From assembly GCA_964475595.1 (NCBI GenBank), contig CAYYXG010000009.1, positions 9,023 to 73,022 of the forward strand: a stretch of 64,000 nucleotides of DNA, read 5' to 3'. Made by a program: the position numbers and the translations under genes. Below are positions 6,241-33,778 of this stretch, piece by piece (within the stretch, counting starts at the first letter, position 1; the number at the start of each line of letters is the position of its first letter). The notes beneath the pieces are model-generated. The model worked only from the letters and a program-made list of their open reading frames with translations, searched no databases and had not been told where the DNA came from. This DNA comes from an uncultured Flavobacteriaceae bacterium (GTDB taxonomy: Bacteria; Bacteroidota; Bacteroidia; NS11-12g; UBA955).

Positions 6241-7338
6241 ATGAAATTGTTTGAAATAATTGAAGCCATTGAAAAGGTGGCACCGCCTTCCTTGCAGGAG
6301 GATTACGATAACAGCGGATTGCTCGTAGGTTCGCCACAGACTGAAATTAAAAAGGCCCTGTTAACGCTTGATACCACCGAGGCAGTGGTGGAAGAGGCCA
6401 TTTCGGAAGGATGCGATCTCATTATTTCCCATCACCCCATTGTATTTCGGGGTTTAAAGCGGTTGAACGGAAATAATTACGTAGAAAGGGTAGTGATGTC
6501 GGCCATCAAGAATAACATTGCCATTTATGCCTGCCATACCAATCTTGACAATGTGTTGAAGCAGGGTGTGAATAGTAAAATAGCAACTAAGCTGGGCTTA
6601 TCAGAACTACAGATTCTGAAACCCATGCAACAGGCATTGATGAAACTTACTGTTTTTACACCGCATACCCATGCAGACGCTGTTCGTGAGGCCCTGTTTG
6701 CAGGAGGTGCCGGCCACGTGGGCAACTATGATGAGTGCAGTTTTAATATTCATGGACAAGGTACTTTTCGGGGTGGGGAAAATACAAACCCTGTTATTGG
6801 AAAAAGGGGTGAAAGAACCGCGCTGGAAGAGCAGCGAATTGAGGTTTTATTGCCTAAAAATAGATTTTCACAGGTGATGAAATCGTTGCGAATAGCGCAT
6901 CCATATGAGGAAATTGCCTACTATTCCGTAGATCTGAATAATGTCTGGCAGGATGCAGGCAGTGGTGTAATCGGGGTGTTGGAAAAACCTATTCAGGGCG
7001 AACAATTTCCGGCTTTTGTAAAAGAAATGCTGAATGCAGAAGTAGTAAGGTATACGGCGCCTGTGGCTTGGGTTAAAAGGGTGGCAGTTTGCGGCGGAAG
7101 TGGGGCTTTTCTCATTAAAAATGCTGTTCAATCCGGCGCGGATGCATACATTACCGGTGATGTTAAATACCATGAATTTTTTGACGCTGAAAACCGCATG
7201 ATGATTTGCGATCCGGGGCATTATGAATCGGAACAATTTACAATCGAACTTTTTGCTGAGATTTTATCAGAAAAATTCCCTAATTTTGCAACCCGTTTTT
7301 CGCATACATACACCAACCCCATACAATATCACTATTAA
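6241..7338 (+). CDS. Nif3-like dinuclear metal center protein (YqfO/YbgI family)
   Basis: MKLFEIIEAIEKVAPP...DLIISHHP...GDVKYHEF motifs. Start moved to internal ATG 6241 to avoid a 49-nt overlap with rlmI. Confidence 0.8.
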   Translation: MKLFEIIEAIEKVAPPSLQEDYDNSGLLVGSPQTEIKKALLTLDTTEAVVEEAISEGCDLIISHHPIVFRGLKRLNGNNYVERVVMSAIKNNIAIYACHTNLDNVLKQGVNSKIATKLGLSELQILKPMQQALMKLTVFTPHTHADAVREALFAGGAGHVGNYDECSFNIHGQGTFRGGENTNPVIGKRGERTALEEQRIEVLLPKNRFSQVMKSLRIAHPYEEIAYYSVDLNNVWQDAGSGVIGVLEKPIQGEQFPAFVKEMLNAEVVRYTAPVAWVKRVAVCGGSGAFLIKNAVQSGADAYITGDVKYHEFFDAENRMMICDPGHYESEQFTIELFAEILSEKFPNFATRFSHTYTNPIQYHY

Positions 7339-9074: not shown

Positions 9075-10973
9075 TTATTTCACTTCTTCAAAGTCCACAT
9101 CTTCTACTTTACCGTCGCTGTCTGATTTTCCTGCACCTTCAGTGCCGGTGGTTTGTTCTGCCTGATTGGCTGCGTTGTACATGTCCTGGCTTGCCGCTTC
9201 CCATGCTTTGCTGAGTTCGGCCGTTGCCGTTTCAATGGCAGGCAAATCCTTGGATTCGTGCGCTTTTTTGAGCGTTTCCAAAGCAGATTCAATGGCACTT
9301 TTCTTTTCGGCTGGGATTTTATCGCCGTATTCTTTCAGCTGTTTTTCGGTGCTGAAAATCAGTGAATCGGCTGCATTCAGTTTATCTACTTCTTCACGAC
9401 GCTTGTTGTCGGCTTCTGCATTTTCCTGTGCCTCCTGCTTCATTTTTTCGATATCTTCCTTGCTTAATCCGCTGCTGGCTTCAATGCGTATCTTCTGCTC
9501 TTTTCCGGTGGCCTTGTCTTTAGCGCTTACACTCAAAATACCATTTGCGTCGATGTCAAAAGTAACCTCAATCTGAGGTACGCCGCGGGGTGCAGGCGGA
9601 ACTCCGTCCAGTATGAATTTGCCTATGGTTTTGTTGTCGCGAGCCATGGGTCTTTCACCTTGAAGGATGTGAATCTCAACTTGTGGCTGATTATCAGCGG
9701 CTGTGCTGAATACTTCGGTTTTCTTGGTTGGGATGGTGGTGTTTGACTCAATCATTTTGGTAAACACACTACCCATGGTTTCAATACCCAGGCTTAGTGG
9801 GGTAACATCCAGCAGCAGTATGTCTTTTACCTCACCGGTGAGAACGCCTCCCTGCAGGGCTGCGCCAATGGCAACTACCTCGTCGGGGTTTACGCCTTTA
9901 CTGGGGGCTTTGCCGAAGAAATCTTCCACCAATTTTTGTATGGCAGGGATACGGGTAGAGCCACCCACGAGAATTACTTCATCGATTTCGGAAGGATTCA
10001 TGCCTGCATCTGAGAGGGCCTTTTTGCAGGGCTCCAGGGTTCGCTGGATTAGGGTTGCGGCCAGTTGTTCAAACTTACTGCGGGTAAGCTTGCGTACCAG
10101 GTGGGCCGGAACTCCGTCTATGGCAGTTATATAGGGCAGATTGATGTCGGTTTCGGTGCTGCTAGACAGCTCGATTTTGGCCTTTTCAGCTGCTTCTTTC
10201 AAGCGCTGCAATGCCATTGGGTCTTTACGCAGATCCAAGTTTTGCTCCGTTTTGAATTCCTCTGCCAGCCAGTCAATGATTACCTGATCGAAGTCGTCGC
10301 CGCCCAGGTGGGTGTCACCATTGGTGCTTTTTACTTCAAATACACCGTCACCCAGTTCCAGCACGCTGATATCGAACGTACCACCTCCGAGGTCATATAC
10401 GGCTATTTTCATATCCTGTCCTTTTTTGTCCATGCCATAGGCAAGGGCAGCAGCGGTAGGTTCATTGATAATACGCTCAACTTTCAGTCCGGCAATTTCA
10501 CCGGCTTCTTTGGTAGCTTGTCTCTGTGCATCGTCAAAATAGGCAGGAACGGTCACCACGGCGCGGGTAACTTCCTGTCCCAGGAAATCTTCTGCTGTTT
10601 TCTTCATTTTCTGAAGAACCATTGCGCTAATTTCCTGCGGGGTGTAGGTGCGATCACCGATTTTTACACGGGGAGTATCATTGTCACCTTTTACCACTTC
10701 ATAGCTTACACGTCCGGTTTCAGTCTGTACGTTGGAGAATTTTTCTCCCATAAAACGCTTGATAGATGAAATGGTGTGCTTAGGGTTGGTGATGGCCTGA
10801 CGTTTCGCGGGATCACCTACTTTTCTTTCTCCGTTGCCGCCATCCAGAAAGGCAACAATGGAGGGGGTAGTGCGACGTCCTTCGCTGTTGGCAATCACAA
10901 CGGGTTCGTTTCCTTCCAATACGGCAACACAGCTATTGGTGGTGCCCAAATCAATACCTATAATTTTACTCAT
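9075..10973 (-). CDS. dnaK: molecular chaperone DnaK (Hsp70)
   Basis: [21 protein letters not shown]..., DLGGGTFD, 632 aa. Confidence 0.98.
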
Positions 10974-11059
10974 GATTTCAGTTTAGCCATGATGAAACAA
11001 CAAAAATGCCAAGCATTAAATTGCCGGTGGCGTATGACGAAATGGCAGTAAGTCTGATT

Positions 11060-12067
11060 TTATGGCAGTATGTTTAACGCCTTGGTTTCTGCGTTATTCC
11101 TCATGAAAATGATGGATCCACTGTCAAATTTTACTTTATCAATTTTTTGTATACAACGGCTGGCAAAAAGTCCGATTCCGCCCTGAATATTGCTGAATTC
11201 TGCCTGTTTTTGCACAATGCCGATAGAGGGCTCGTTCACTGAAATATAATCTGATAATAGCTGATTGCCCCCATAAACCCTGATACCTGCGTATCTCATT
11301 CTGTGATACAGGCCGGGATCTGCGGTAATCGTGTTACGCAGAAATTGCAATAATGCCAGCCGGGGAATTTTGTATAGCATATTGCTATTGCCTATGGCCG
11401 AGGCATTGGTGAGTACATTCCAGGTAGCCACTTTGGTGGTTTTGTTGAATGTGTCATTCACCGGAAACTCATCGTAGGTGATGTCCATTTTTACATCGTA
11501 GGCAAAGCTGTTAGACCCCGCTCTCATACTGATGGTGAGATATTCTGGGGTTACTGCAAAGTTGCTGTTGGAGTCGCGGAATGGCGATAGAATGTTGGCA
11601 GGACCAACCAGATTGGTTTCTGCGCGCACGGTGTTGCCGCTTTTGGGACTAAAGACTTCCAGAATGTATCGTTTACCGGGATTAAGCGATTTTGTGCCGG
11701 AGGTGTTTAAACGGTACAATGGATTTTTATCATTGGCAAACAATCCTGAGTCTTTGGCAATATTCCAAACCCGTGTGAGGTTATCGTTGAAAGTATTGTC
11801 CGTTGACCGAAGAGAAACCATGGCAGAATCCAAATACAAAGAATCGCTGATTTTGGCCACTTGCAGCGCCCCGGTATTCTCATTGAGAAATGCCTTGGCT
11901 ACACGGACGAACTGCACGCTGTCATTCACGTTGAGCATGCCATAAACGACCATGGTTTCTTTCCAATCAGCATTGATATCCAAATCGTTTTTACAAGAAA
12001 ACAATGCGATAATCGCCGTAAAAAATGCGGAGATTATGTGGCGGTATGCTGTTGGCAGTTTTTTCAC
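11060..12067 (-). CDS. hypothetical lipoprotein
   Basis: Signal peptide plus lipobox (IIALFSCKND). ORF start is GTG in the tracked frame; an internal ATG is possible. Confidence 0.5.
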   Translation of the reverse strand: MKKLPTAYRHIISAFFTAIIALFSCKNDLDINADWKETMVVYGMLNVNDSVQFVRVAKAFLNENTGALQVAKISDSLYLDSAMVSLRSTDNTFNDNLTRVWNIAKDSGLFANDKNPLYRLNTSGTKSLNPGKRYILEVFSPKSGNTVRAETNLVGPANILSPFRDSNSNFAVTPEYLTISMRAGSNSFAYDVKMDITYDEFPVNDTFNKTTKVATWNVLTNASAIGNSNMLYKIPRLALLQFLRNTITADPGLYHRMRYAGIRVYGGNQLLSDYISVNEPSIGIVQKQAEFSNIQGGIGLFASRCIQKIDKVKFDSGSIIFMRNNAETKALNILP

Positions 12068-28109: not shown

Positions 28110-28946
28110 TTATTTAACTTTTCGTATACCGTTTGGAGTAATGTCAATTTTTCGTGCCTTATATAGGGTTCCCACGGCCTTTTTCCAGGCTTTTTTGCTC
28201 ATGCCGAATCGTTCGTAAATATCTTCAGGGCTGCTATTATCCGTGAGCCCGATATATCCGTTATTTTCCCTCAGGGTCTGTAAAATTCGTTCGGCCATAT
28301 CATCCACGTGGGCCATACCGCTTTTTTGCAATGCTAGGTCGGTTTTGCCATCAGGGCGAATATGCTTGATGTATCCTGTAATTTTATCGCCGGTTGTTAA
28401 GGGCTGAAAAACTTCGTTGGAATAAATGATACCGCTGTGTTCTTTGCCGATGATGGCATTGTAACCCAGGGGTGTTTTATTCCAGATGAGCAGTTCAACG
28501 GCATCGCCTTCCTCGAATGGCAACGGAGTTTTATTTAAATATTTGCTGATTTTGGCGGTTGCAGCAAGGCGTTCAGATACTTTATCAAAATAGACATAAA
28601 CCACATATTTCTTACCACGAATCATTGGGACATTTTGTTCGCGCACGGGCACCAGCAGGTCTTTCAGCAAGCCCCAGTCCATGAATGCCCCAAAGTGCGT
28701 GGTGGATTTACATGTGAGGGCAGCAAACTCGCCAAGCTGCACAAAAGGTTTTTCAGTGGTGGCCACGATTCTATCGTCTGAGTCATAATATACAAAGACA
28801 TCTACCATGTCGTCCGGTGCCGCATGGGGGGGCAGATACTTACCGGGCATCAGGATTTCGCCACCATCTCCATCATCGAGAAAAGCACCAAAATCTACGA
28901 GGCGGTTTATTTTTAAATGGTTGTATTTGCCCGGAGTGGCTTTCAT
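28110..28946 (-). CDS. cvfB: CvfB family S1-domain RNA-binding protein
   Basis: YNHLKINRLVDFGAFLDDGDGGEILMP plus further S1-like repeats and a C-terminal winged-helix region. Confidence 0.7.
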   Translation of the reverse strand: MKATPGKYNHLKINRLVDFGAFLDDGDGGEILMPGKYLPPHAAPDDMVDVFVYYDSDDRIVATTEKPFVQLGEFAALTCKSTTHFGAFMDWGLLKDLLVPVREQNVPMIRGKKYVVYVYFDKVSERLAATAKISKYLNKTPLPFEEGDAVELLIWNKTPLGYNAIIGKEHSGIIYSNEVFQPLTTGDKITGYIKHIRPDGKTDLALQKSGMAHVDDMAERILQTLRENNGYIGLTDNSSPEDIYERFGMSKKAWKKAVGTLYKARKIDITPNGIRKVK

Positions 28947-29041: not shown

Positions 29042-29578
29042 ATGATTTTGTCTGACAAGCGCATACTGGAAGAAATTGACAAAGGGACGATAAAAATTGA
29101 GCCATACGACAGGGATTGTTTGGGCAGCAACAGCTACGATGTTCATTTGGGCAAATGGCTGGCTACCTACAAAGACCATATTCTGGATGCCAAGAAGCAC
29201 AACGAAATCGAGTATTTCGAAATTCCTGAGGACGGGTTTGTGCTGTATCCCCATGTTTTTTATCTGGGCGTAACTGAGGAATATACTGAAACGCATGCCC
29301 ATGTTCCGTTTTTGGAGGGGAAGAGCAGTACGGGCCGTTTAGGGATTGATATCCACGCAACAGCAGGCAAAGGAGACGTAGGTTTTTGCGGTAATTGGAC
29401 GTTGGAAATCAGCGTAAAACAGCCGGTGAAAGTATATAGGGGCATGCCGATTGGTCAGCTGATTTATTTCCCTGTGGAGGGAGAAATCGAGGTGAAATAC
29501 AACCAGAAGAAAAACGCTAAGTATTCCGGTCAGCCCGACAGGCCGATTGAGAGTATGATGTGGAAGAATACCTTTTAG
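29042..29578 (+). CDS. dcd: dCTP deaminase
   Basis: MILSDKRILEEI... 178 aa trimeric dUTPase-fold motifs (GKSSTGRLGI, GFCGNWTLEI). The upstream part of the ORF is read-through of the cvfB antisense strand. Confidence 0.85.
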   Translation: MILSDKRILEEIDKGTIKIEPYDRDCLGSNSYDVHLGKWLATYKDHILDAKKHNEIEYFEIPEDGFVLYPHVFYLGVTEEYTETHAHVPFLEGKSSTGRLGIDIHATAGKGDVGFCGNWTLEISVKQPVKVYRGMPIGQLIYFPVEGEIEVKYNQKKNAKYSGQPDRPIESMMWKNTF

Positions 29579-29584
29579 GGTGTT

Positions 29585-30151
29585 TTAAGGTCGGTAGTAG
29601 TGCAACTGAAAGAAGTTGGATTTGCTGCCAATGACCGATTCAACAGAAACATTATTTAACCAAACTGGGGCAGGATTTTCGTAGTAGTAGCGAAACGAGC
29701 TCATGGGCCATGCTTGGATATCGTCGGTAAAACCATGTTTAACGGGGTTTCGGTGTATGTAAACGAGGACCCGAAAAAAGTCGGTTTGGTCGCTGATAAT
29801 TCTGCGGCGGAGATTTTTCATAAACATGGAGCCGCGGCGGTTATATTTTTTATTATAGGCCTTGCAATAAGAGTTGAAGAAATTAGAAAATTGCTGGCTG
29901 TAATAACGTTCCTTTTTATCCGCTGGCAGACCTTCAAGGTCTATAAGACCTTGAAGGTCTGCCGGCGATTTGGTACGAATTAAAAAATGGAAATGGTTGG
30001 GCATCAGGCAGTACGCATAGGTATCCGCTACCGGACCTATATATTTCCCATACTGCTGCAAGAAAAATCGGTAATTCTCCGCTTCCTTAAATAAATTGTC
30101 ATGCCCGTTTGCATGGTTGTAAATGTGGTAGAACGTTTCAGGTAAAATCAT
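29585..30151 (-). mobile_element. REP-associated tyrosine transposase (RAYT) / IS200-like Y1 HuH transposase, solitary
   Basis: HuH motif CLMPNHFHFLI and catalytic-Tyr motif LVYIHRNPVKHGF. Start at internal ATG MILPETFYHIYNH. No partner tnpB or inverted repeats seen. Confidence 0.8.
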
Positions 30152-30262
30152 AAAAATAATAATAAAATAAATATAAATCGTAAATAAATAAACAACATGC
30201 AATAATAATACTTTTTTCTCATTTTCAACCCCTTTCCGCTTTTCCTATCTTTGCACCTTCCA

Positions 30263-31804
30263 ATGAACAACGAGGATCTCTTCAAAAAAGTCGTTTCCCA
30301 CTGCAAAGAATATGGGTTTGTTTTTCCTTCCAGCGAAATCTATGATGGCCTTGCTGCCGTTTATGATTACGGCCAAAACGGGGTAGAGCTGCGTAACAAT
30401 ATCCGCCAATACTGGTGGAAAGCCATGACCCAGCTGCAAACCAATATCCTCGGTATCGATGCGGCCATTTTTATGCACCCCAAAACATGGAAAGCCAGCG
30501 GACACATCGATGGGTTCAGCGATCCTATGATCGATAACAAAGACAGCAAAAAGCGGTATCGCGCCGATGTATTACTCGAAGATCATCAGGAAAAACTTCG
30601 TGCCAAAGCCGATAAAGAGGTTGAAAAAGCCCGCGCCCGTTTTGGTGATAGCTTCGATGAAACCATGTACCGATCCACCAACCCACGCGTGGTGGAATAC
30701 CTCAATGCCATCGCCCATATAGATAATACCCTGAAAGAAGGTCTCGAAACCGGCAATCTGGGCATGATAAAAGCCCTGATAGAAGAACTGGGTATCGTTT
30801 GTCCCGTTAGCGGCTCTAAAAACTGGACTGATGTACGTCAGTTCAACCTCATGTACAGTACCCAGATGAGCGCTGTTGAAAGCGGGGAAGACAGTCTGTA
30901 TTTACGACCTGAAACCGCCCAAGGCATTTTTGTGAATTTTCTCAATGTGCAAAAATCAGGTCGCACCAAAATTCCTTTTGGTATTGCCCAAACCGGAAAA
31001 GCTTTCCGAAATGAAATTGTAGCCAGACAGTTCATTATGCGCATGAAAGAGTTCGAACAAATGGAAATGCAGTTTTTCTGCAAACCCGGCACCGAACTGG
31101 AATGGTACGCCTACTGGAAGGAACAACGCCTGAAATGGCACCTGGCGTTAGGTACAGATAAAGACAGTTATCGCTACCACGACCATGTGAAACTGGCCCA
31201 CTATGCCAATGCAGCCGTGGATATTGAATTTGATTTTCCTTTCGGTTTTAAAGAGGTGGAAGGCATTCACAGCCGCACCGATTTCGATCTCAGTAAACAT
31301 GAGGAATTTAGCGGTAAAAAACTCCGTTATTTTGATCCTGAAACCAACGAAAGCTATATCCCTTATGTGGTTGAAACCAGCATCGGTCTCGATCGCATGT
31401 TTTTACTCGCTTTGTGTGCCGCCTATCAGGAAGAGCCGGTTGAAGGAGGGGAAGTGCGCACTGTGCTGAAATTGCATCCTGCGCTGGCTCCCGTAAAGGC
31501 AGCAATTTTACCCTTGGTAAAAAAGGATGGCTTGCCGGAATTGGCTGAAAAAATTTACAACGACCTGCGCTTCGATTTTAAACTGTACATCGAAGACAAA
31601 GACAGCATTGGCAAGCGTTACCGCCGCATGGATGCCATCGGTACACCTTTCTGTATTACTGTGGATCACGATAGTTTGAATAACGAAGATGTTACCATTC
31701 GCCACCGCGATACCATGGAGCAGCGCAGGGTTAAGATTTCCGAATTGCGCGATATACTGCACCGAGAAACTGATATGTCTTCATTACTCCAAAAATTAGC
31801 CTGA
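30263..31804 (+). CDS. glyQS: glycine--tRNA ligase (dimeric class II, GlyQS)
   Basis: [30 protein letters not shown]..., class II motifs, C-terminal anticodon-binding domain. Confidence 0.93.
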
Positions 31805-31815
31805 TTTATCCCATT

Positions 31816-33003
31816 ATGATAACCATTGATCAATTTAATTTCAAGGGCGAAAAAGTCCTTATTCGTGTAGATTTCAATGTGCCGCTGAACGCTGATTTCC
31901 AAATTACCGACGATTCACGCATAACAGCAACCCTGCCTACCCTTAATAAAATTCTGGGTGACGGCGGTTCCGTTATTCTGATGAGCCACCTGGGCCGACC
32001 TAAAACCGGACCGGAAGATAAATTCAGCCTGCGACATATCCTTCCGCACCTCGGCCAATTGTTGGGTAAAAACGTAAAATTTGCCACTGACTGCATCGGT
32101 GTTGATGCGACTGAACTGGCTGCAGGATTGGGTGCAGGAGAGGTGTTGCTACTGGAAAACCTCCGTTTTTACAAAGAAGAAGAAAAAGGCGACCGCGATT
32201 TTGCCCAAAAACTAGCCTCGCTGGGATCTTTCTATGTGAACGATGCCTTCGGAACAGCGCATCGTGCTCATGCTAGTACGGCCATTATTGCTGATTTCTT
32301 TCCGGGAAAAAAAGCCTTTGGCTATGTAATGGCACGTGAGGTAGAAAATGCCAATAAGGTGATGAAAGCGCCCCAAAGACCATTTACCGCTATTGTAGGT
32401 GGAGCTAAGGTTTCCGATAAAATCTTAATTGTTGAAAATCTGCTGAATGTGGCCGATCATATCATCATTGGTGGTGGCATGGCATATACGTTCTTTAAGG
32501 CACAGGGTGGTCAAATAGGGAAATCGCTGTGTGAAGATGAGCGTTTGCAAACCTGTATTGAGATTTTGGAAAAAGCAAAAGCCAAAGGAGTGAAAATCCA
32601 TTTGCCTTCTGACTCTGTGATTGCCGATAATTTTGCTGCTGATGCCACTACCCAAAACTGCAGTAGCAATAATATCCCAGATGGCTGGATGGGTCTTGAT
32701 ATTGGAACTTCTGCCTGCAACGATTTTAAGAATGTGCTGCTGAACAGCAAAACCATTTTGTGGAACGGCCCGATGGGTGTATTTGAGATGGATGCTTTTA
32801 GCAACGGCACCAAGACCGTAGCAGAGGCTGTAGCTGAAAGCACGCAAAATGGCGCTTTCAGTTTGATAGGCGGCGGCGACAGTGCAGCAGCCGTTCACAA
32901 GTTCGGTTTCGAGGAAAAGGTGAGTTATGTAAGCACCGGTGGTGGCGCACTGTTGGAATACTTCGAAGGAAAAACATTGCCGGGAATTGCGGCAATAGTT
33001 TAG
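31816..33003 (+). CDS. pgk: phosphoglycerate kinase
   Basis: [18 protein letters not shown], 395 aa. Confidence 0.97.
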
Positions 33004-33059
33004 AGTTAAGAGTTTAGAGTTAGGGGTTAAGAGTTAAAAGTTGATAGTCTACAGTTTGT
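33004..33059. repeat. tandem heptamer microsatellite (AGTTNNG x8)
   Basis: AGTTAAG AGTTTAG AGTTAGG GGTTAAG AGTTAAA AGTTGAT AGTCTAC AGTTTGT, directly after the pgk stop. Confidence 0.8.
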
Positions 33060-33360
33060 CAATGCCTGAATTTAGTTAATAGTATATTAGGTTTATTGGT
33101 TGAATGGTTTAATGGGTTAATTTATCTAACCTGCAATTAACCCCGAAGGGGTGGCATTATTGTAGCCCACAGGGCGTAAAATCCGACCCCAACGGGGTCG
33201 CACATATTCAAATGGTTTTTCGTGTTTTGTTGTCGGGCGGGGCAACCGCAATCAAAATCCATCACCCCAAAACACAATATGCGACCACCTTCGGGGTCGT
33301 GCATTCTATGCGCCGTTCCGGCTAGAGATATTTGACCCCGCTGGGGTCACAAGCACAATG

Positions 33361-33441
33361 CACAATGCAGATATGTGTGCCCATAAATCGTGCGTCGGCA
33401 ATCCCTGCATTTTTCATGGTTGCCGAAGATGCCAACCAAAC
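33361..33441. repeat. 81-bp direct repeat, copy 1
   Basis: CACAATGCAGATATGTGTGCCCATAAATCGTGCGTCGGCAATCCCTGCATTTTTC... Identical to copy 2 except 2 nt. Confidence 0.9.
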
Positions 33442-33512
33442 GACATCGCCATGACCACACTCGGGTCGAGCACAATTCACAATTCACAATTAGCAATGCA
33501 CAATTAGCAATG

Positions 33513-33593
33513 CACAATGCAGATATGTGTGCCCATAAATCGTGCGTCGGCAATCCCTGCATTTTTCGTGGTTACCGAAGATGCCAACCAAAC
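33513..33593. repeat. 81-bp direct repeat, copy 2 (period 152 bp)
   Basis: Same 81-mer with 2 mismatches. Separated from copy 1 by CACAATT/AGCAATG heptamer tandems (33467-33512). Confidence 0.9.
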
Positions 33594-33778
33594 ATCGAAA
33601 AAATGACCACACGACATCGCCATGACCCCAGCGGGGTCAAACATCTGTAGGCCTCGTGGGTGAGGGAATCGACCCCATCGGGGTCGCATATATCCTAATT
33701 ATCCATAGGTGCTCACCAAAAACAAAACAAGGACGGGCAATGCACCAAACCAATAAACCATTTTACCAATAAACCAAA

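What the first reader, a model, noticed from the sequence alone, without database searches (positions are those of the whole stretch)
29585..30202. Solitary RAYT / IS200-like HuH tyrosine transposase without tnpB or terminal hairpins
The protein carries the diagnostic HuH motif (MPNHFHFLI) and the Y1 catalytic motif (YIHRNPVKHG), typical of REP-associated tyrosine transposases. It is single-copy in the window, wedged divergently 60 bp from glyQS. Its immediate flanks contain no subterminal hairpins. The long ORF reported by the six-frame track is an artefact: its first 17 codons read through an AT-rich leader, and the real start is the internal ATG at 30151. Domesticated RAYTs are thought to mobilise REPs in trans, and the REP-like nest at 33.0-33.8 kb is the obvious candidate substrate.
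Basis: partly seen in the sequence, partly recalled or inferred. Interest (0 to 1): 0.5.

Follow-up and report, generated by a model that had tools for sequence, protein, structure and literature searches.

The report
Fixed RAYT gene carrying its own hairpin
This is a single-copy, vertically inherited relative of the REP-associated tyrosine transposases in a Chitinophagaceae-like bacterium; it has no hairpins beside it but carries a perfectly conserved hairpin inside its own reading frame, and the hairpin cluster 3 kb away belongs to a different, IS200-type system.

Summary
The ORF is real. The gene is 29585-30151(-), 188 aa. It has an intact HuH motif (NHFH) and a catalytic Tyr motif (YIHRNP). 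The predicted fold is closest to E. coli TnpA_REP (4ER8). The ATG at 30151 is the start used by all homologs. It is single-copy in the window, has no tnpB, lies 6 bp from dcd and 111 bp from glyQS, and has no flanking hairpins.

It is an 18-bp perfect stem with a 3-nt loop at 29925-29963, in frame, in the loop after the HuH motif. All syntenic orthologs keep it, through compensatory double substitutions.

Across 74 relatives from other species, 57 carry related, mostly 15-3-15 hairpins in or beside the gene. This is the family's cognate REP.

The gene sits at the same glyQS/dcd site in relatives down to 58% identity. Its dS matches its neighbours' and its dN/dS is 0.05-0.25, so it is fixed and selected, not an active IS.

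The GACCCC nest at 33.1-33.7 kb is not its substrate. No such hairpin occurs in 1.19 Mb around 80 family genes. Elsewhere the same modules flank true IS200-type TnpA genes.

Verdict: a known kind (RAYT). The in-frame, internal-only hairpin is the notable detail.

The parts
29585..30151 (-). RAYT-like (class-2 TnpA_Y1) gene, 188 aa including the stop codon
   Evidence: ORF. Homolog N-termini and the public gene call fix the start at ATG 30151. AF2 pLDDT is 90.7. The top Foldseek hit is 4ER8 TnpA_REP, E=2.9e-8. NCBIfam NF047646 scores 56.5 bits.
29987..29998 (-). HuH motif N52-H53-F54-H55 on strand beta3
   Evidence: N52, H53 and H55 are invariant in 25 homologs. The model has a strand at residues 53-60.
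29925..29963 (.). In-frame perfect palindrome with an 18-bp stem and a 3-nt loop (imperfect extension 29921-29967). It encodes ADLQGLIDLEGLP in the beta3-alphaC loop and is the cognate REPIN-like hairpin of this family.
   Evidence: It is conserved with compensatory changes in orthologs. The same hairpin type flanks relatives. The encoded loop has lower model confidence.
29744..29761 (-). Catalytic tyrosine motif Y131-I-H-R-N-P on helix alphaD (class-2 'Y...NP' signature)
   Evidence: Y131 and N135 are invariant. The model has a helix at residues 122-138. It aligns to the Tyr region of 4ER8.
29585..29726 (-). Fast-evolving C-terminal tail (about 45 aa after the W-P-x-S-S motif)
   Evidence: DNA identity to orthologs falls to 32-58% here, against 80-95% in the rest of the gene.
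30152..30262 (.). AT-rich 111-bp divergent intergenic region between the RAYT start and the glyQS start. The spurious 17-codon ORF extension (to 30202) lies here. It contains no hairpin.

Best explanation
The gene encodes a class-2 HuH/Y1 single-strand DNA nuclease-ligase of the RAYT (TnpA_REP) type. It belongs to a large family found mainly in Bacteroidota. In most family members the gene is bracketed by a characteristic AT-rich hairpin, and often also interrupted by it in frame. The hairpin has 15-nt arms and a 3-nt loop (33 nt, 11 codons). Each arm is itself a mini-palindrome, and there is no GTAG tag.

In this lineage the gene has become a fixed chromosomal gene between glyQS and dcd. The flanking hairpins are gone and only the in-frame copy remains.

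Shown: identity, fold, intact catalytic residues, fixed position, purifying selection, and conservation of the hairpin by compensatory change.

Inferred: the protein binds this hairpin on single-stranded DNA and cuts and rejoins next to it through Tyr131, with His53/His55 holding the metal, as E. coli TnpA_REP does with REPs. The internal hairpin would then be kept because it is the enzyme's own recognition site. It could act as a self-carried substrate or master copy, a brake on its own expression, or both.
For: Identity and fold:
- HuH and Tyr motifs are present, with 20 invariant residues.
- The model is confident.
- The best structural match is 4ER8, followed by IS200, ISDra2 and IS608 TnpA.
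- There are 3928 homologs, many named RayT by JGI.

Fixed position and selection:
- The same glyQS-RAYT-dcd-cvfB order holds for orthologs at 97, 78, 60 and 58% identity.
- The 80 more distant relatives lie at other sites.
- dS equals that of the neighbours, and dN/dS is 0.05-0.25.

Hairpin:
- It is the longest in 64 kb.
- Orthologs keep perfect pairing through double changes: CAAGGTCT/AGACCTTG, CCAGGTCT/AGACCTGG and CCAGGTTT/AAACCTGG; in the outer stem GGC/GCC against CCC/GGG.
- Over 19 sequences, 97.7% of cells are paired, 15 of 18 pairs changed on both sides, and none changed on one side only.

Family pattern:
- 57 of 74 loci have a perfect hairpin of at least 11 bp in the gene or within 400 bp of it. 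That is 114 hairpins in 111 kb against 54 in 1082 kb elsewhere.
- Internal and flanking copies are at least 9/11 identical in 8 of 9 loci.
- 9 of 74 loci are 'internal only', like this one.

Precedent: in-frame REPs between the HuH and Tyr motifs of tnpA_REP are described for subclass 2.4 (PMC6006769).
Against: - Curated profile cut-offs are not reached.
- No biochemical data exist for this family.
- No second copy of the hairpin lies in 64 kb, so there is no visible population of elements for the enzyme to act on here.
- Perfect pairing could be kept by arm-to-arm repair of a palindrome rather than by selection.
- The 12 non-orthologous sequences in the covariation count were chosen because they had perfect stems.
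- RAYT evolves about 5-10 times faster at non-synonymous sites than dcd and glyQS.
Confidence: 0.7

Rival explanations
1. One reading: the RAYT mobilises in trans the GACCCC hairpin nest at 33.1-33.7 kb.
For: - The nest lies only 3 kb away and is a real cluster.
- The stem ends GACC/GGTC resemble the internal hairpin AGACC...GGTCT.
- In one metagenome locus (L115), a canonical RAYT (NF047646, 99 bits) has a CGACCCC hairpin 280 bp upstream.
Against: - There are 0 GACCCCnnnGGGGTC hairpins in 1.19 Mb around 80 family genes, and none in the orthologous 20-kb locus L082.
- The family's own hairpins are of a different type, 15-3-15 and AT-rich.
- The nest modules flank true IS200-type TnpA genes: L123 on both sides, L114 and L122 downstream. 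These genes score Pfam Y1_Tnp 84-96 bits and pass NF033573.
Confidence: 0.08
2. It is an ordinary, currently mobile IS200-like insertion sequence that happens to be single-copy in this window.
For: - It is a HuH/Y1 transposase relative.
- A few distant relatives occur twice within 20 kb (L007, L032).
- The family shows no conserved location across species.
Against: - It occupies the same site in orthologs down to 58% identity, with dS like its neighbours.
- It has no terminal hairpins and no room for ends, with 6 bp to dcd.
- It has the class-2 Y...NP motif rather than Y...Q.
- There is no tnpB.
Confidence: 0.03
3. It is a decaying relic. The gene has no function, and the palindrome persists only because palindromes self-correct or by chance.
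For: - Non-synonymous rate is higher than in the neighbours, and the C-terminal tail is very variable.
- No external hairpin copies exist within 64 kb.
Against: - The ORF is intact in all 7 distinct orthologs.
- dN/dS is 0.05-0.25.
- All catalytic and 20 other positions are invariant across 25 homologs at 45-97% identity.
Confidence: 0.07
4. The enzyme is domesticated for a host function unrelated to REP mobility. The internal hairpin works at the RNA level, for example as a translational brake or an RNase site, rather than as a DNA substrate.
For: - As RNA, the stem has a predicted dG of about -36 to -44 kcal/mol, strong enough to slow ribosomes.
- The gene is fixed and selected.
Against: - No G-U intermediates appear in any of 18 pairs over 19 sequences, as expected for DNA pairing.
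- In relatives the same hairpin also lies outside the transcript-coding part, on both sides of the gene, and is dispersed in some loci.
Confidence: 0.12

Closest known systems
E. coli TnpA_REP / RAYT (PDB 4ER8; Quentin subclass 2.2, Bertels group 2)
   Same: - HuH/Y1 fold (top structural hit, TM 0.62/0.70).
- Y...NP tyrosine motif.
- A W-P-x-S-S/T tail after the Tyr helix.
- Single-copy chromosomal gene.
- Association of the family with small palindromes.
   Different: - Only 17% identity.
- Phe replaces the conserved Trp of the WQ motif.
- The family's hairpins lack the GTAG tag and are 33-nt AT-rich doublets.
- This gene has no flanking REPs.
Subclass 2.4 TnpA_REP with REPs inserted in frame in the gene (Quentin et al. 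2018, PMC6006769; Bertels group 4)
   Same: - A palindrome identical in type to the family's flanking repeats lies in frame between the HuH and Tyr motifs.
- It sits in a surface loop after beta3.
- Protein length is about 190-200 aa, and the group occurs in Bacteroidetes.
   Different: - REPs of 2.4 are GTAG-tagged, GC-rich stems (for example GTAGGGGCGACC...).
- The WQ and YIxNNP motifs are not matched.
- Here the internal copy is the only one left.
Subclass 2.6 TnpA_REP of Bacteroidetes (Bertels group 5)
   Same: - Phylum.
- A YIH.NP motif and the SS tail motif.
- HuH-to-Tyr distance of about 80 aa.
- Untagged 'atypical' hairpins with 3-4-nt loops.
   Different: - The listed 2.6 hairpins are 8-10-bp GC-rich stems with a GCTRG foot, not 15-3-15 AT-rich doublets.
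- The HuH middle residue is F, not L/I/V.
- Assignment is not verifiable without the authors' HMMs.
IS200 TnpA (IS200/IS605 family, subclass 1.1/1.2)
   Same: HuH/Y1 catalytic core.
   Different: - IS200 has the Y...Q motif, proteins of about 150 aa and subterminal end hairpins, and is multicopy.
- Those features fit the genes that accompany the nest-type modules in L123, L114 and L122, not this gene.
Rickettsia palindromic elements (RPE) inserted in frame in genes (as cited in PMC3733652)
   Same: A short palindromic repeat is tolerated in frame inside a functional ORF.
   Different: RPEs are about 100-150 bp and sit in many unrelated genes. Here a 33-39-nt hairpin sits in the gene of its presumed own enzyme.

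Membership tests
HuH/Y1 superfamily (TnpA_Y1) | HuH metal-binding motif on a beta strand | tested here: met
   N52-H53-F54-H55. H53 and H55 are invariant in 25 homologs. The model has a strand at residues 53-60.
HuH/Y1 superfamily (TnpA_Y1) | Single catalytic Tyr on the C-terminal helix, and the overall fold | tested here: met
   Y131 is invariant and lies on helix 122-138. Foldseek matches 4ER8, 2F4F, 2XMA and 2VJV.
HuH/Y1 superfamily (TnpA_Y1) | Pfam PF01797 gathering score | tested here: not met
   14.7 bits against a cut-off of 23. Some homologs do carry PF01797.
RAYT / TnpA_REP (class 2) | Y...NP tyrosine motif, as opposed to Y...Q in IS200 | tested here: met
   YIHRNP. The family shows YIH.NP. 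The criterion is from PMC6006769.
RAYT / TnpA_REP (class 2) | NCBIfam NF047646 equivalog cut-off | tested here: not met
   56.5 bits against 80. Relatives score 57-67 bits.
RAYT / TnpA_REP (class 2) | Low copy number and vertical inheritance | tested here: met
   One copy in 64 kb. It is syntenic in orthologs down to 58% identity, with dS equal to the neighbours'. Genome-wide copy number is not testable.
RAYT / TnpA_REP (class 2) | Gene flanked by its REPs (REPtron) | tested here: not met
   There is no hairpin in the 6-bp or the 111-bp flank. The feature is met by most relatives: 48 of 74 have a flanking hairpin and 24 have one on both sides.
RAYT / TnpA_REP (class 2) | Dispersed genomic population of the cognate REP/REPIN | tested here: inconclusive
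   There is no other copy in the 64-kb window or in 20 kb of L082. The whole genome is not available.
RAYT / TnpA_REP (class 2) | Sequence- and structure-specific cleavage and joining of single-stranded REP DNA | not testable with these tools
   Needs biochemistry.
IS200/IS605 insertion sequence | Left and right subterminal hairpins, multicopy, optional tnpB | tested here: not met
   There are no end hairpins, no tnpB, only a single copy, and a fixed site.
Quentin subclass 2.4 | REP inserted in frame between the HuH and Tyr motifs | tested here: met
   The palindrome at 29925-29963 begins 7 residues after the HuH motif.
Quentin subclass 2.4 | GTAG-tagged REPs, and the WQ and YIxNNP motifs | tested here: not met
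   The family hairpins have no conserved tag. The protein has F, not W (GSMFMK), and YIHRNP.
Quentin subclass 2.6 | Bacteroidetes, YIH[QN]NP, SS tail, HuH-to-Tyr distance about 82 aa, NH[LIV]H | tested here: inconclusive
   Chitinophagaceae context, YIH.NP, WPMSS, and 78 aa from H53 to Y131. However the HuH motif is NHFH, the hairpin type differs, and the subclass HMMs are not available.

The most novel reading that the evidence does not exclude
The in-frame palindrome is not a tolerated passenger but a selected part of the system. The enzyme gene carries, inside its own ORF, the last (master) copy of its recognition hairpin. Selection on the gene shelters it, and compensatory change has kept it perfect over a divergence at which synonymous sites are saturated. 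It would serve as a self-targeting regulatory site, as a seed from which a REPIN-like population can re-expand, or as both. This would be a way for an enzyme-repeat pair to persist after the dispersed repeats are lost.
Probability: 0.2. Interest if true: 0.6.

Novelty: new member of a known kind. Interest (0 to 1): 0.38.

Why it matters
RAYTs are the standard example of a domesticated bacterial transposase, but their function and their tie to REPs remain unsettled outside Proteobacteria.

This locus gives a clean, testable case in Bacteroidota. It is a fixed, selected RAYT whose only nearby cognate hairpin is inside its own reading frame and co-evolves arm with arm.

It also shows that proximity is a poor guide to partnership. 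The neighbouring hairpin nest belongs with a different Y1 enzyme type, IS200-like and of the Quentin subclass 1.2 kind, which was reported as having no associated repeats.

Both points are useful for annotating Y1 genes and small palindromic repeats in Bacteroidota genomes.

Tried and rejected
- **Second copy or pseudogene of the RAYT in the window.** tblastn with 120 homologs plus a motif regex found only short noise at 11.3, 16.2 and 59.8 kb.
- **Rfam on 28.0-35.5 kb.** Nothing significant. The best hit was Acido-Lenti-1, 19.6 against 37 bits.
- **Hairpin as terminator.** The consensus scan did not call it one.
- **Empty site.** I looked for glyQS next to dcd without the RAYT, using dcd relatives at 90-92% identity. 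Their neighbourhoods differ altogether (L129-L134), so the insertion boundaries could not be defined.
- **Source genome.** The best GTDB species hit for the RAYT is only 49%, so the source genome is not in that collection. Genome-wide hairpin counts were therefore impossible.
- **Subclass assignment in the Quentin scheme.** The motifs split between 2.1, 2.4 and 2.6. The published REP lists for 2.4, 2.6 and 2.7 do not contain the 15-3-15 hairpin motif strings I searched for.
- **Full-text search for the hairpin sequences.** It found nothing relevant.
- **GACCCC pattern with a 4-nt loop.** My first search found one site only. The loops are 3 nt.

Full report
**Observation**

The ORF at 29585-30202 on the minus strand exists. 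It carries the HuH motif (MPNHFHFLI) and the tyrosine motif (YIHRNPVKHG). Sixteen aligned homologs all begin at the internal methionine. The public gene call on an identical Logan contig is 188 aa. The gene is therefore 29585-30151, and the 17 upstream codons are read-through of an AT-rich leader.

The stop codon lies 6 bp from the stop of dcd (29042-29578, convergent). The start lies 111 bp from the glyQS start at 30263, not 60 bp. No other copy or fragment is in the window. The neighbours are CvfB, dcd, glyQS and pgk, with no tnpB.

**Identity**

Curated profiles are matched only weakly. Pfam Y1_Tnp scores 14.7 bits against a cut-off of 23. NCBIfam REP-associated tyrosine transposase scores 56.5 against 80. 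Relatives score 57-67.

The family is nonetheless large. There are 3928 clusters at E<=1e-3, mostly Bacteroidota MAGs, and JGI often names them RayT. Twenty positions are invariant across 25 members, including H53, H55 and Y131.

An AlphaFold model built on that alignment is confident (pLDDT 90.7). Its best PDB match is E. coli TnpA_REP bound to a REP hairpin (4ER8, E=2.9e-8, TM 0.62/0.70). The IS200, ISDra2 and IS608 transposases follow. The Y...NP signature places it in class 2 (TnpA_REP-like) of the scheme of Quentin et al. 2018 (PMC6006769).

I could not fix the subclass. NHFH, Phe at the conserved Trp position, YIH.NP, an SS tail and a 78-aa HuH-to-Tyr distance fit parts of 2.1, 2.4 and 2.6.

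**Evolutionary status**

Orthologs at 97, 78, 60 and 58% protein identity sit in the same glyQS / RAYT / dcd / cvfB arrangement. Eighty relatives from other GTDB species (at most 54% identity) show no such synteny.

Synonymous divergence of the RAYT equals that of its neighbours:
- 0.29 against 0.28 for the closest pair.
- 0.93 against 0.76-1.96 for the next pair.

dN/dS is 0.05-0.25, against 0.02-0.04 for dcd, glyQS and pgk. The last 45 or so codons are much more variable than the rest.

This is the pattern of a vertically inherited gene under purifying but relaxed selection, not an active insertion sequence or a pseudogene. The dcd homologs place the organism in the Chitinophagaceae.

**The overlooked feature**

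The flanks indeed hold no hairpin, but the gene does. Positions 29925-29963 form an 18-bp perfect stem with a 3-nt loop. It is the longest perfect hairpin in the 64-kb window; the other three with stems of 9 bp or more look like terminators. As ssDNA its dG is -25 kcal/mol, z = -8.1.

It lies in frame and encodes ADLQGLIDLEGLP in the loop between strand beta3 (HuH) and helix alphaC. Model confidence dips there.

All seven distinct syntenic orthologs keep the hairpin at the same place, although synonymous sites are saturated between the deeper pairs. Pairing is preserved by double changes:
- CAAGGTCT/AGACCTTG in the window, L088 and L082.
- CCAGGTCT/AGACCTGG in L127.
- CCAGGTTT/AAACCTGG in L089, L091 and L128.
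- In the outer stem, GGC/GCC in the window against CCC/GGG in L082.

These changes alter the peptide.

Counted over 19 sequences, 97.7% of cells pair. Fifteen of 18 pairs show changes on both sides and none on one side only. The slid controls collapse to 55% or less. The absence of G-U intermediates points to pairing at the DNA level. One caveat applies: the twelve non-orthologous sequences in that alignment were picked because their stems were perfect.

**Family context**

- In 20 of the 74 scanned relatives with recognisable motifs, a perfect hairpin of at least 14 bp lies in the same loop. Most are 15-3-15, which is 33 nt or 11 codons.
- The same sequence usually recurs just upstream and just downstream of the gene, and in some loci is dispersed (L034, L042, L046, L018).
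- Perfect hairpins of at least 11 bp number 114 in the genes plus 400-bp flanks (111 kb), against 54 in the remaining 1082 kb. That is about a 20-fold enrichment.
- Of 74 loci with full flanks, 57 have such a hairpin in or beside the gene, and 24 have one on both sides. Eighteen have an internal hairpin, and 9 are 'internal only' like the window.
- Internal and flanking copies are at least 9/11 identical in 8 of 9 loci.
- The arms follow A[AG]AC[CT]T...A[AG]GT[CT]T. Each arm is itself a small palindrome, so the unit looks like a compact REPIN doublet. No GTAG-like tag is conserved next to it.

In-frame REPs between the HuH and Tyr motifs of tnpA_REP are already described for subclass 2.4. The REPs listed there for Bacteroidetes are GTAG-tagged, GC-rich stems. 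My searches for the 15-3-15 arm motifs found no such hairpin in that paper's REP table, apart from a shorter, GTAG-tagged 2.7 hairpin from Emticicia that shares the GACAGGTT core.

**The nest at 33.1-33.7 kb**

It is real. Six to seven hairpins of the form GACCCC-nnn-GGGGTC occur nowhere else in the window. They are arranged as three roughly 70-nt modules: a TGACCCC hairpin, then CTAG plus a CCC..GGG hairpin, then a CGACCCC hairpin followed by CAYATAT. Two modules are direct and one is inverted, and a 152-bp tandem duplication lies among them. Short-read contigs break inside the nest.

It is not the RAYT's partner:
- No GACCCCnnnGGGGTC occurs in 1.19 Mb around the 80 family genes, or in 20 kb of the orthologous locus L082. 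In L082, pgk is followed directly by another gene.
- The extended motif CGACCCCnnnGGGGTCGCAYATAT occurs in 33 metagenome stretches from varied habitats.
- In several of these the modules directly flank a 153-156-aa gene with DH[IV]H and Y..NQKEHH motifs. This is seen in L123 on both sides and in L114 and L122 downstream.
- Those genes are genuine IS200-type TnpA. Pfam Y1_Tnp scores 84-96 bits. The two scored against NCBIfam (L122, L123) pass NF033573. They match the subclass 1.2 signature of Quentin et al.
- No such gene is in the window.
- One canonical RAYT (L115) also has a CGACCCC hairpin upstream, so a link to some class-2 enzymes cannot be excluded. There is still no link to this family.

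**Mechanism**

By homology, the protein should bind a DNA hairpin on single-stranded DNA and cleave and rejoin beside it through Tyr131. His53/His55 would hold the metal. That step is inferred, not shown.

The cognate hairpin of the family is the 15-3-15 doublet. Here the only copy in reach is the one in the gene itself. I think it most likely that this copy is retained because it is still recognised. It would serve as a self-carried substrate or master copy, as a brake on expression, or as both. Self-correction of a palindrome without selection remains possible.

**Verdict**

The 'no hairpins' statement is incomplete, and the proposed substrate is wrong on present evidence.

The gene is a new member of a known kind (RAYT/TnpA_REP), with a feature already known in another subclass (an in-frame REP). 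The internal-only state with compensatory evolution, and the untagged AT-rich doublet of this Bacteroidota family, are modestly new details. Interest is moderate to low.

Noticed in passing
window 33131-33693 (modules about 33139-33207 +, 33277-33349 -, 33623-33693 +; degenerate copy 33445-33475): The hairpin nest is built of a roughly 70-nt three-hairpin module. The same module flanks genuine IS200-type TnpA genes (Y..NQKEHH, Quentin subclass 1.2, reported there as lacking repeats) in metagenome loci L123, L114 and L122. The nest looks like miniature derivatives or REP-like partners of that enzyme type, whose gene is not in the window.
   Followed up: partly
window 33356-33441 and 33508-33593: An 86-nt segment is repeated at 98% identity with 152-bp spacing inside the nest. 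Two public short-read contigs (L092, L093) end inside the nest, about 240 bp beyond the 155-aa gene, as expected for a repeat.
   Followed up: partly
window 33087-33118 and 33747-33778: 32-nt imperfect inverted repeats (84% complementary; GGTTTATTGGTT / ACCAATAAACC motifs) bracket the whole nest, as if it were one composite element of about 690 bp.
   Followed up: no
window 32997-33045: Directly after the pgk stop codon there is a run of 7-nt units (GAGTTAA / GAGTTTA / GGGTTAA), seen as three 14-nt-spaced copies.
   Followed up: no
L089 and L091 (orthologous RAYT genes), just 3' of the main hairpin: The 58-60% orthologs carry a second small in-frame palindrome (TTGGCGC AGAAG GCGCCAA, encoding GAEGAK) next to the main one. 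It accounts for their extra residues. Palindromic insertions seem to recur in this loop.
   Followed up: partly
window 28110-28946 (cvfB) compared with L082 and L089: CvfB is 93% identical in L089 but only 61% in L082, while dcd and glyQS stay at 94-97% in L082 and dcd at 97% in L089. The region next to the RAYT is mosaic, which suggests allelic replacement by recombination.
   Followed up: no
metagenome loci L095, L098, L104, L114, L115, L119, L122, L126: A second, roughly 130-nt modular element occurs in low-GC contigs. It consists of hairpin A + AAATGTTTATA, about 25 nt, the CGACCCC hairpin + CACATAT, about 20 nt, then TATAAACAT + hairpin C. It is repeated within contigs and lies next to Y1 genes in L114, L115 and L122.
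   Followed up: no
metagenome loci L094, L096, L097, L099, L101, L106, L110-L113, L117, L120, L124, L125 (most from human-gut assemblies): In contigs of about 50% GC, most from human-gut assemblies, the same CGACCCCAGCGGGGTCGCATATAT hairpin is followed by a long conserved hairpin (GGCATGGGTCATACAAGCC...). In L097, L106 and L110 it lies about 200 bp from dnaK.
   Followed up: no
L032 (Sediminibacterium goheungense) 6511-7083 and 10865-11437; L007: Some distant family members are present twice within 20 kb, each copy with its own flanking hairpins. Parts of the family may therefore still duplicate.
   Followed up: no
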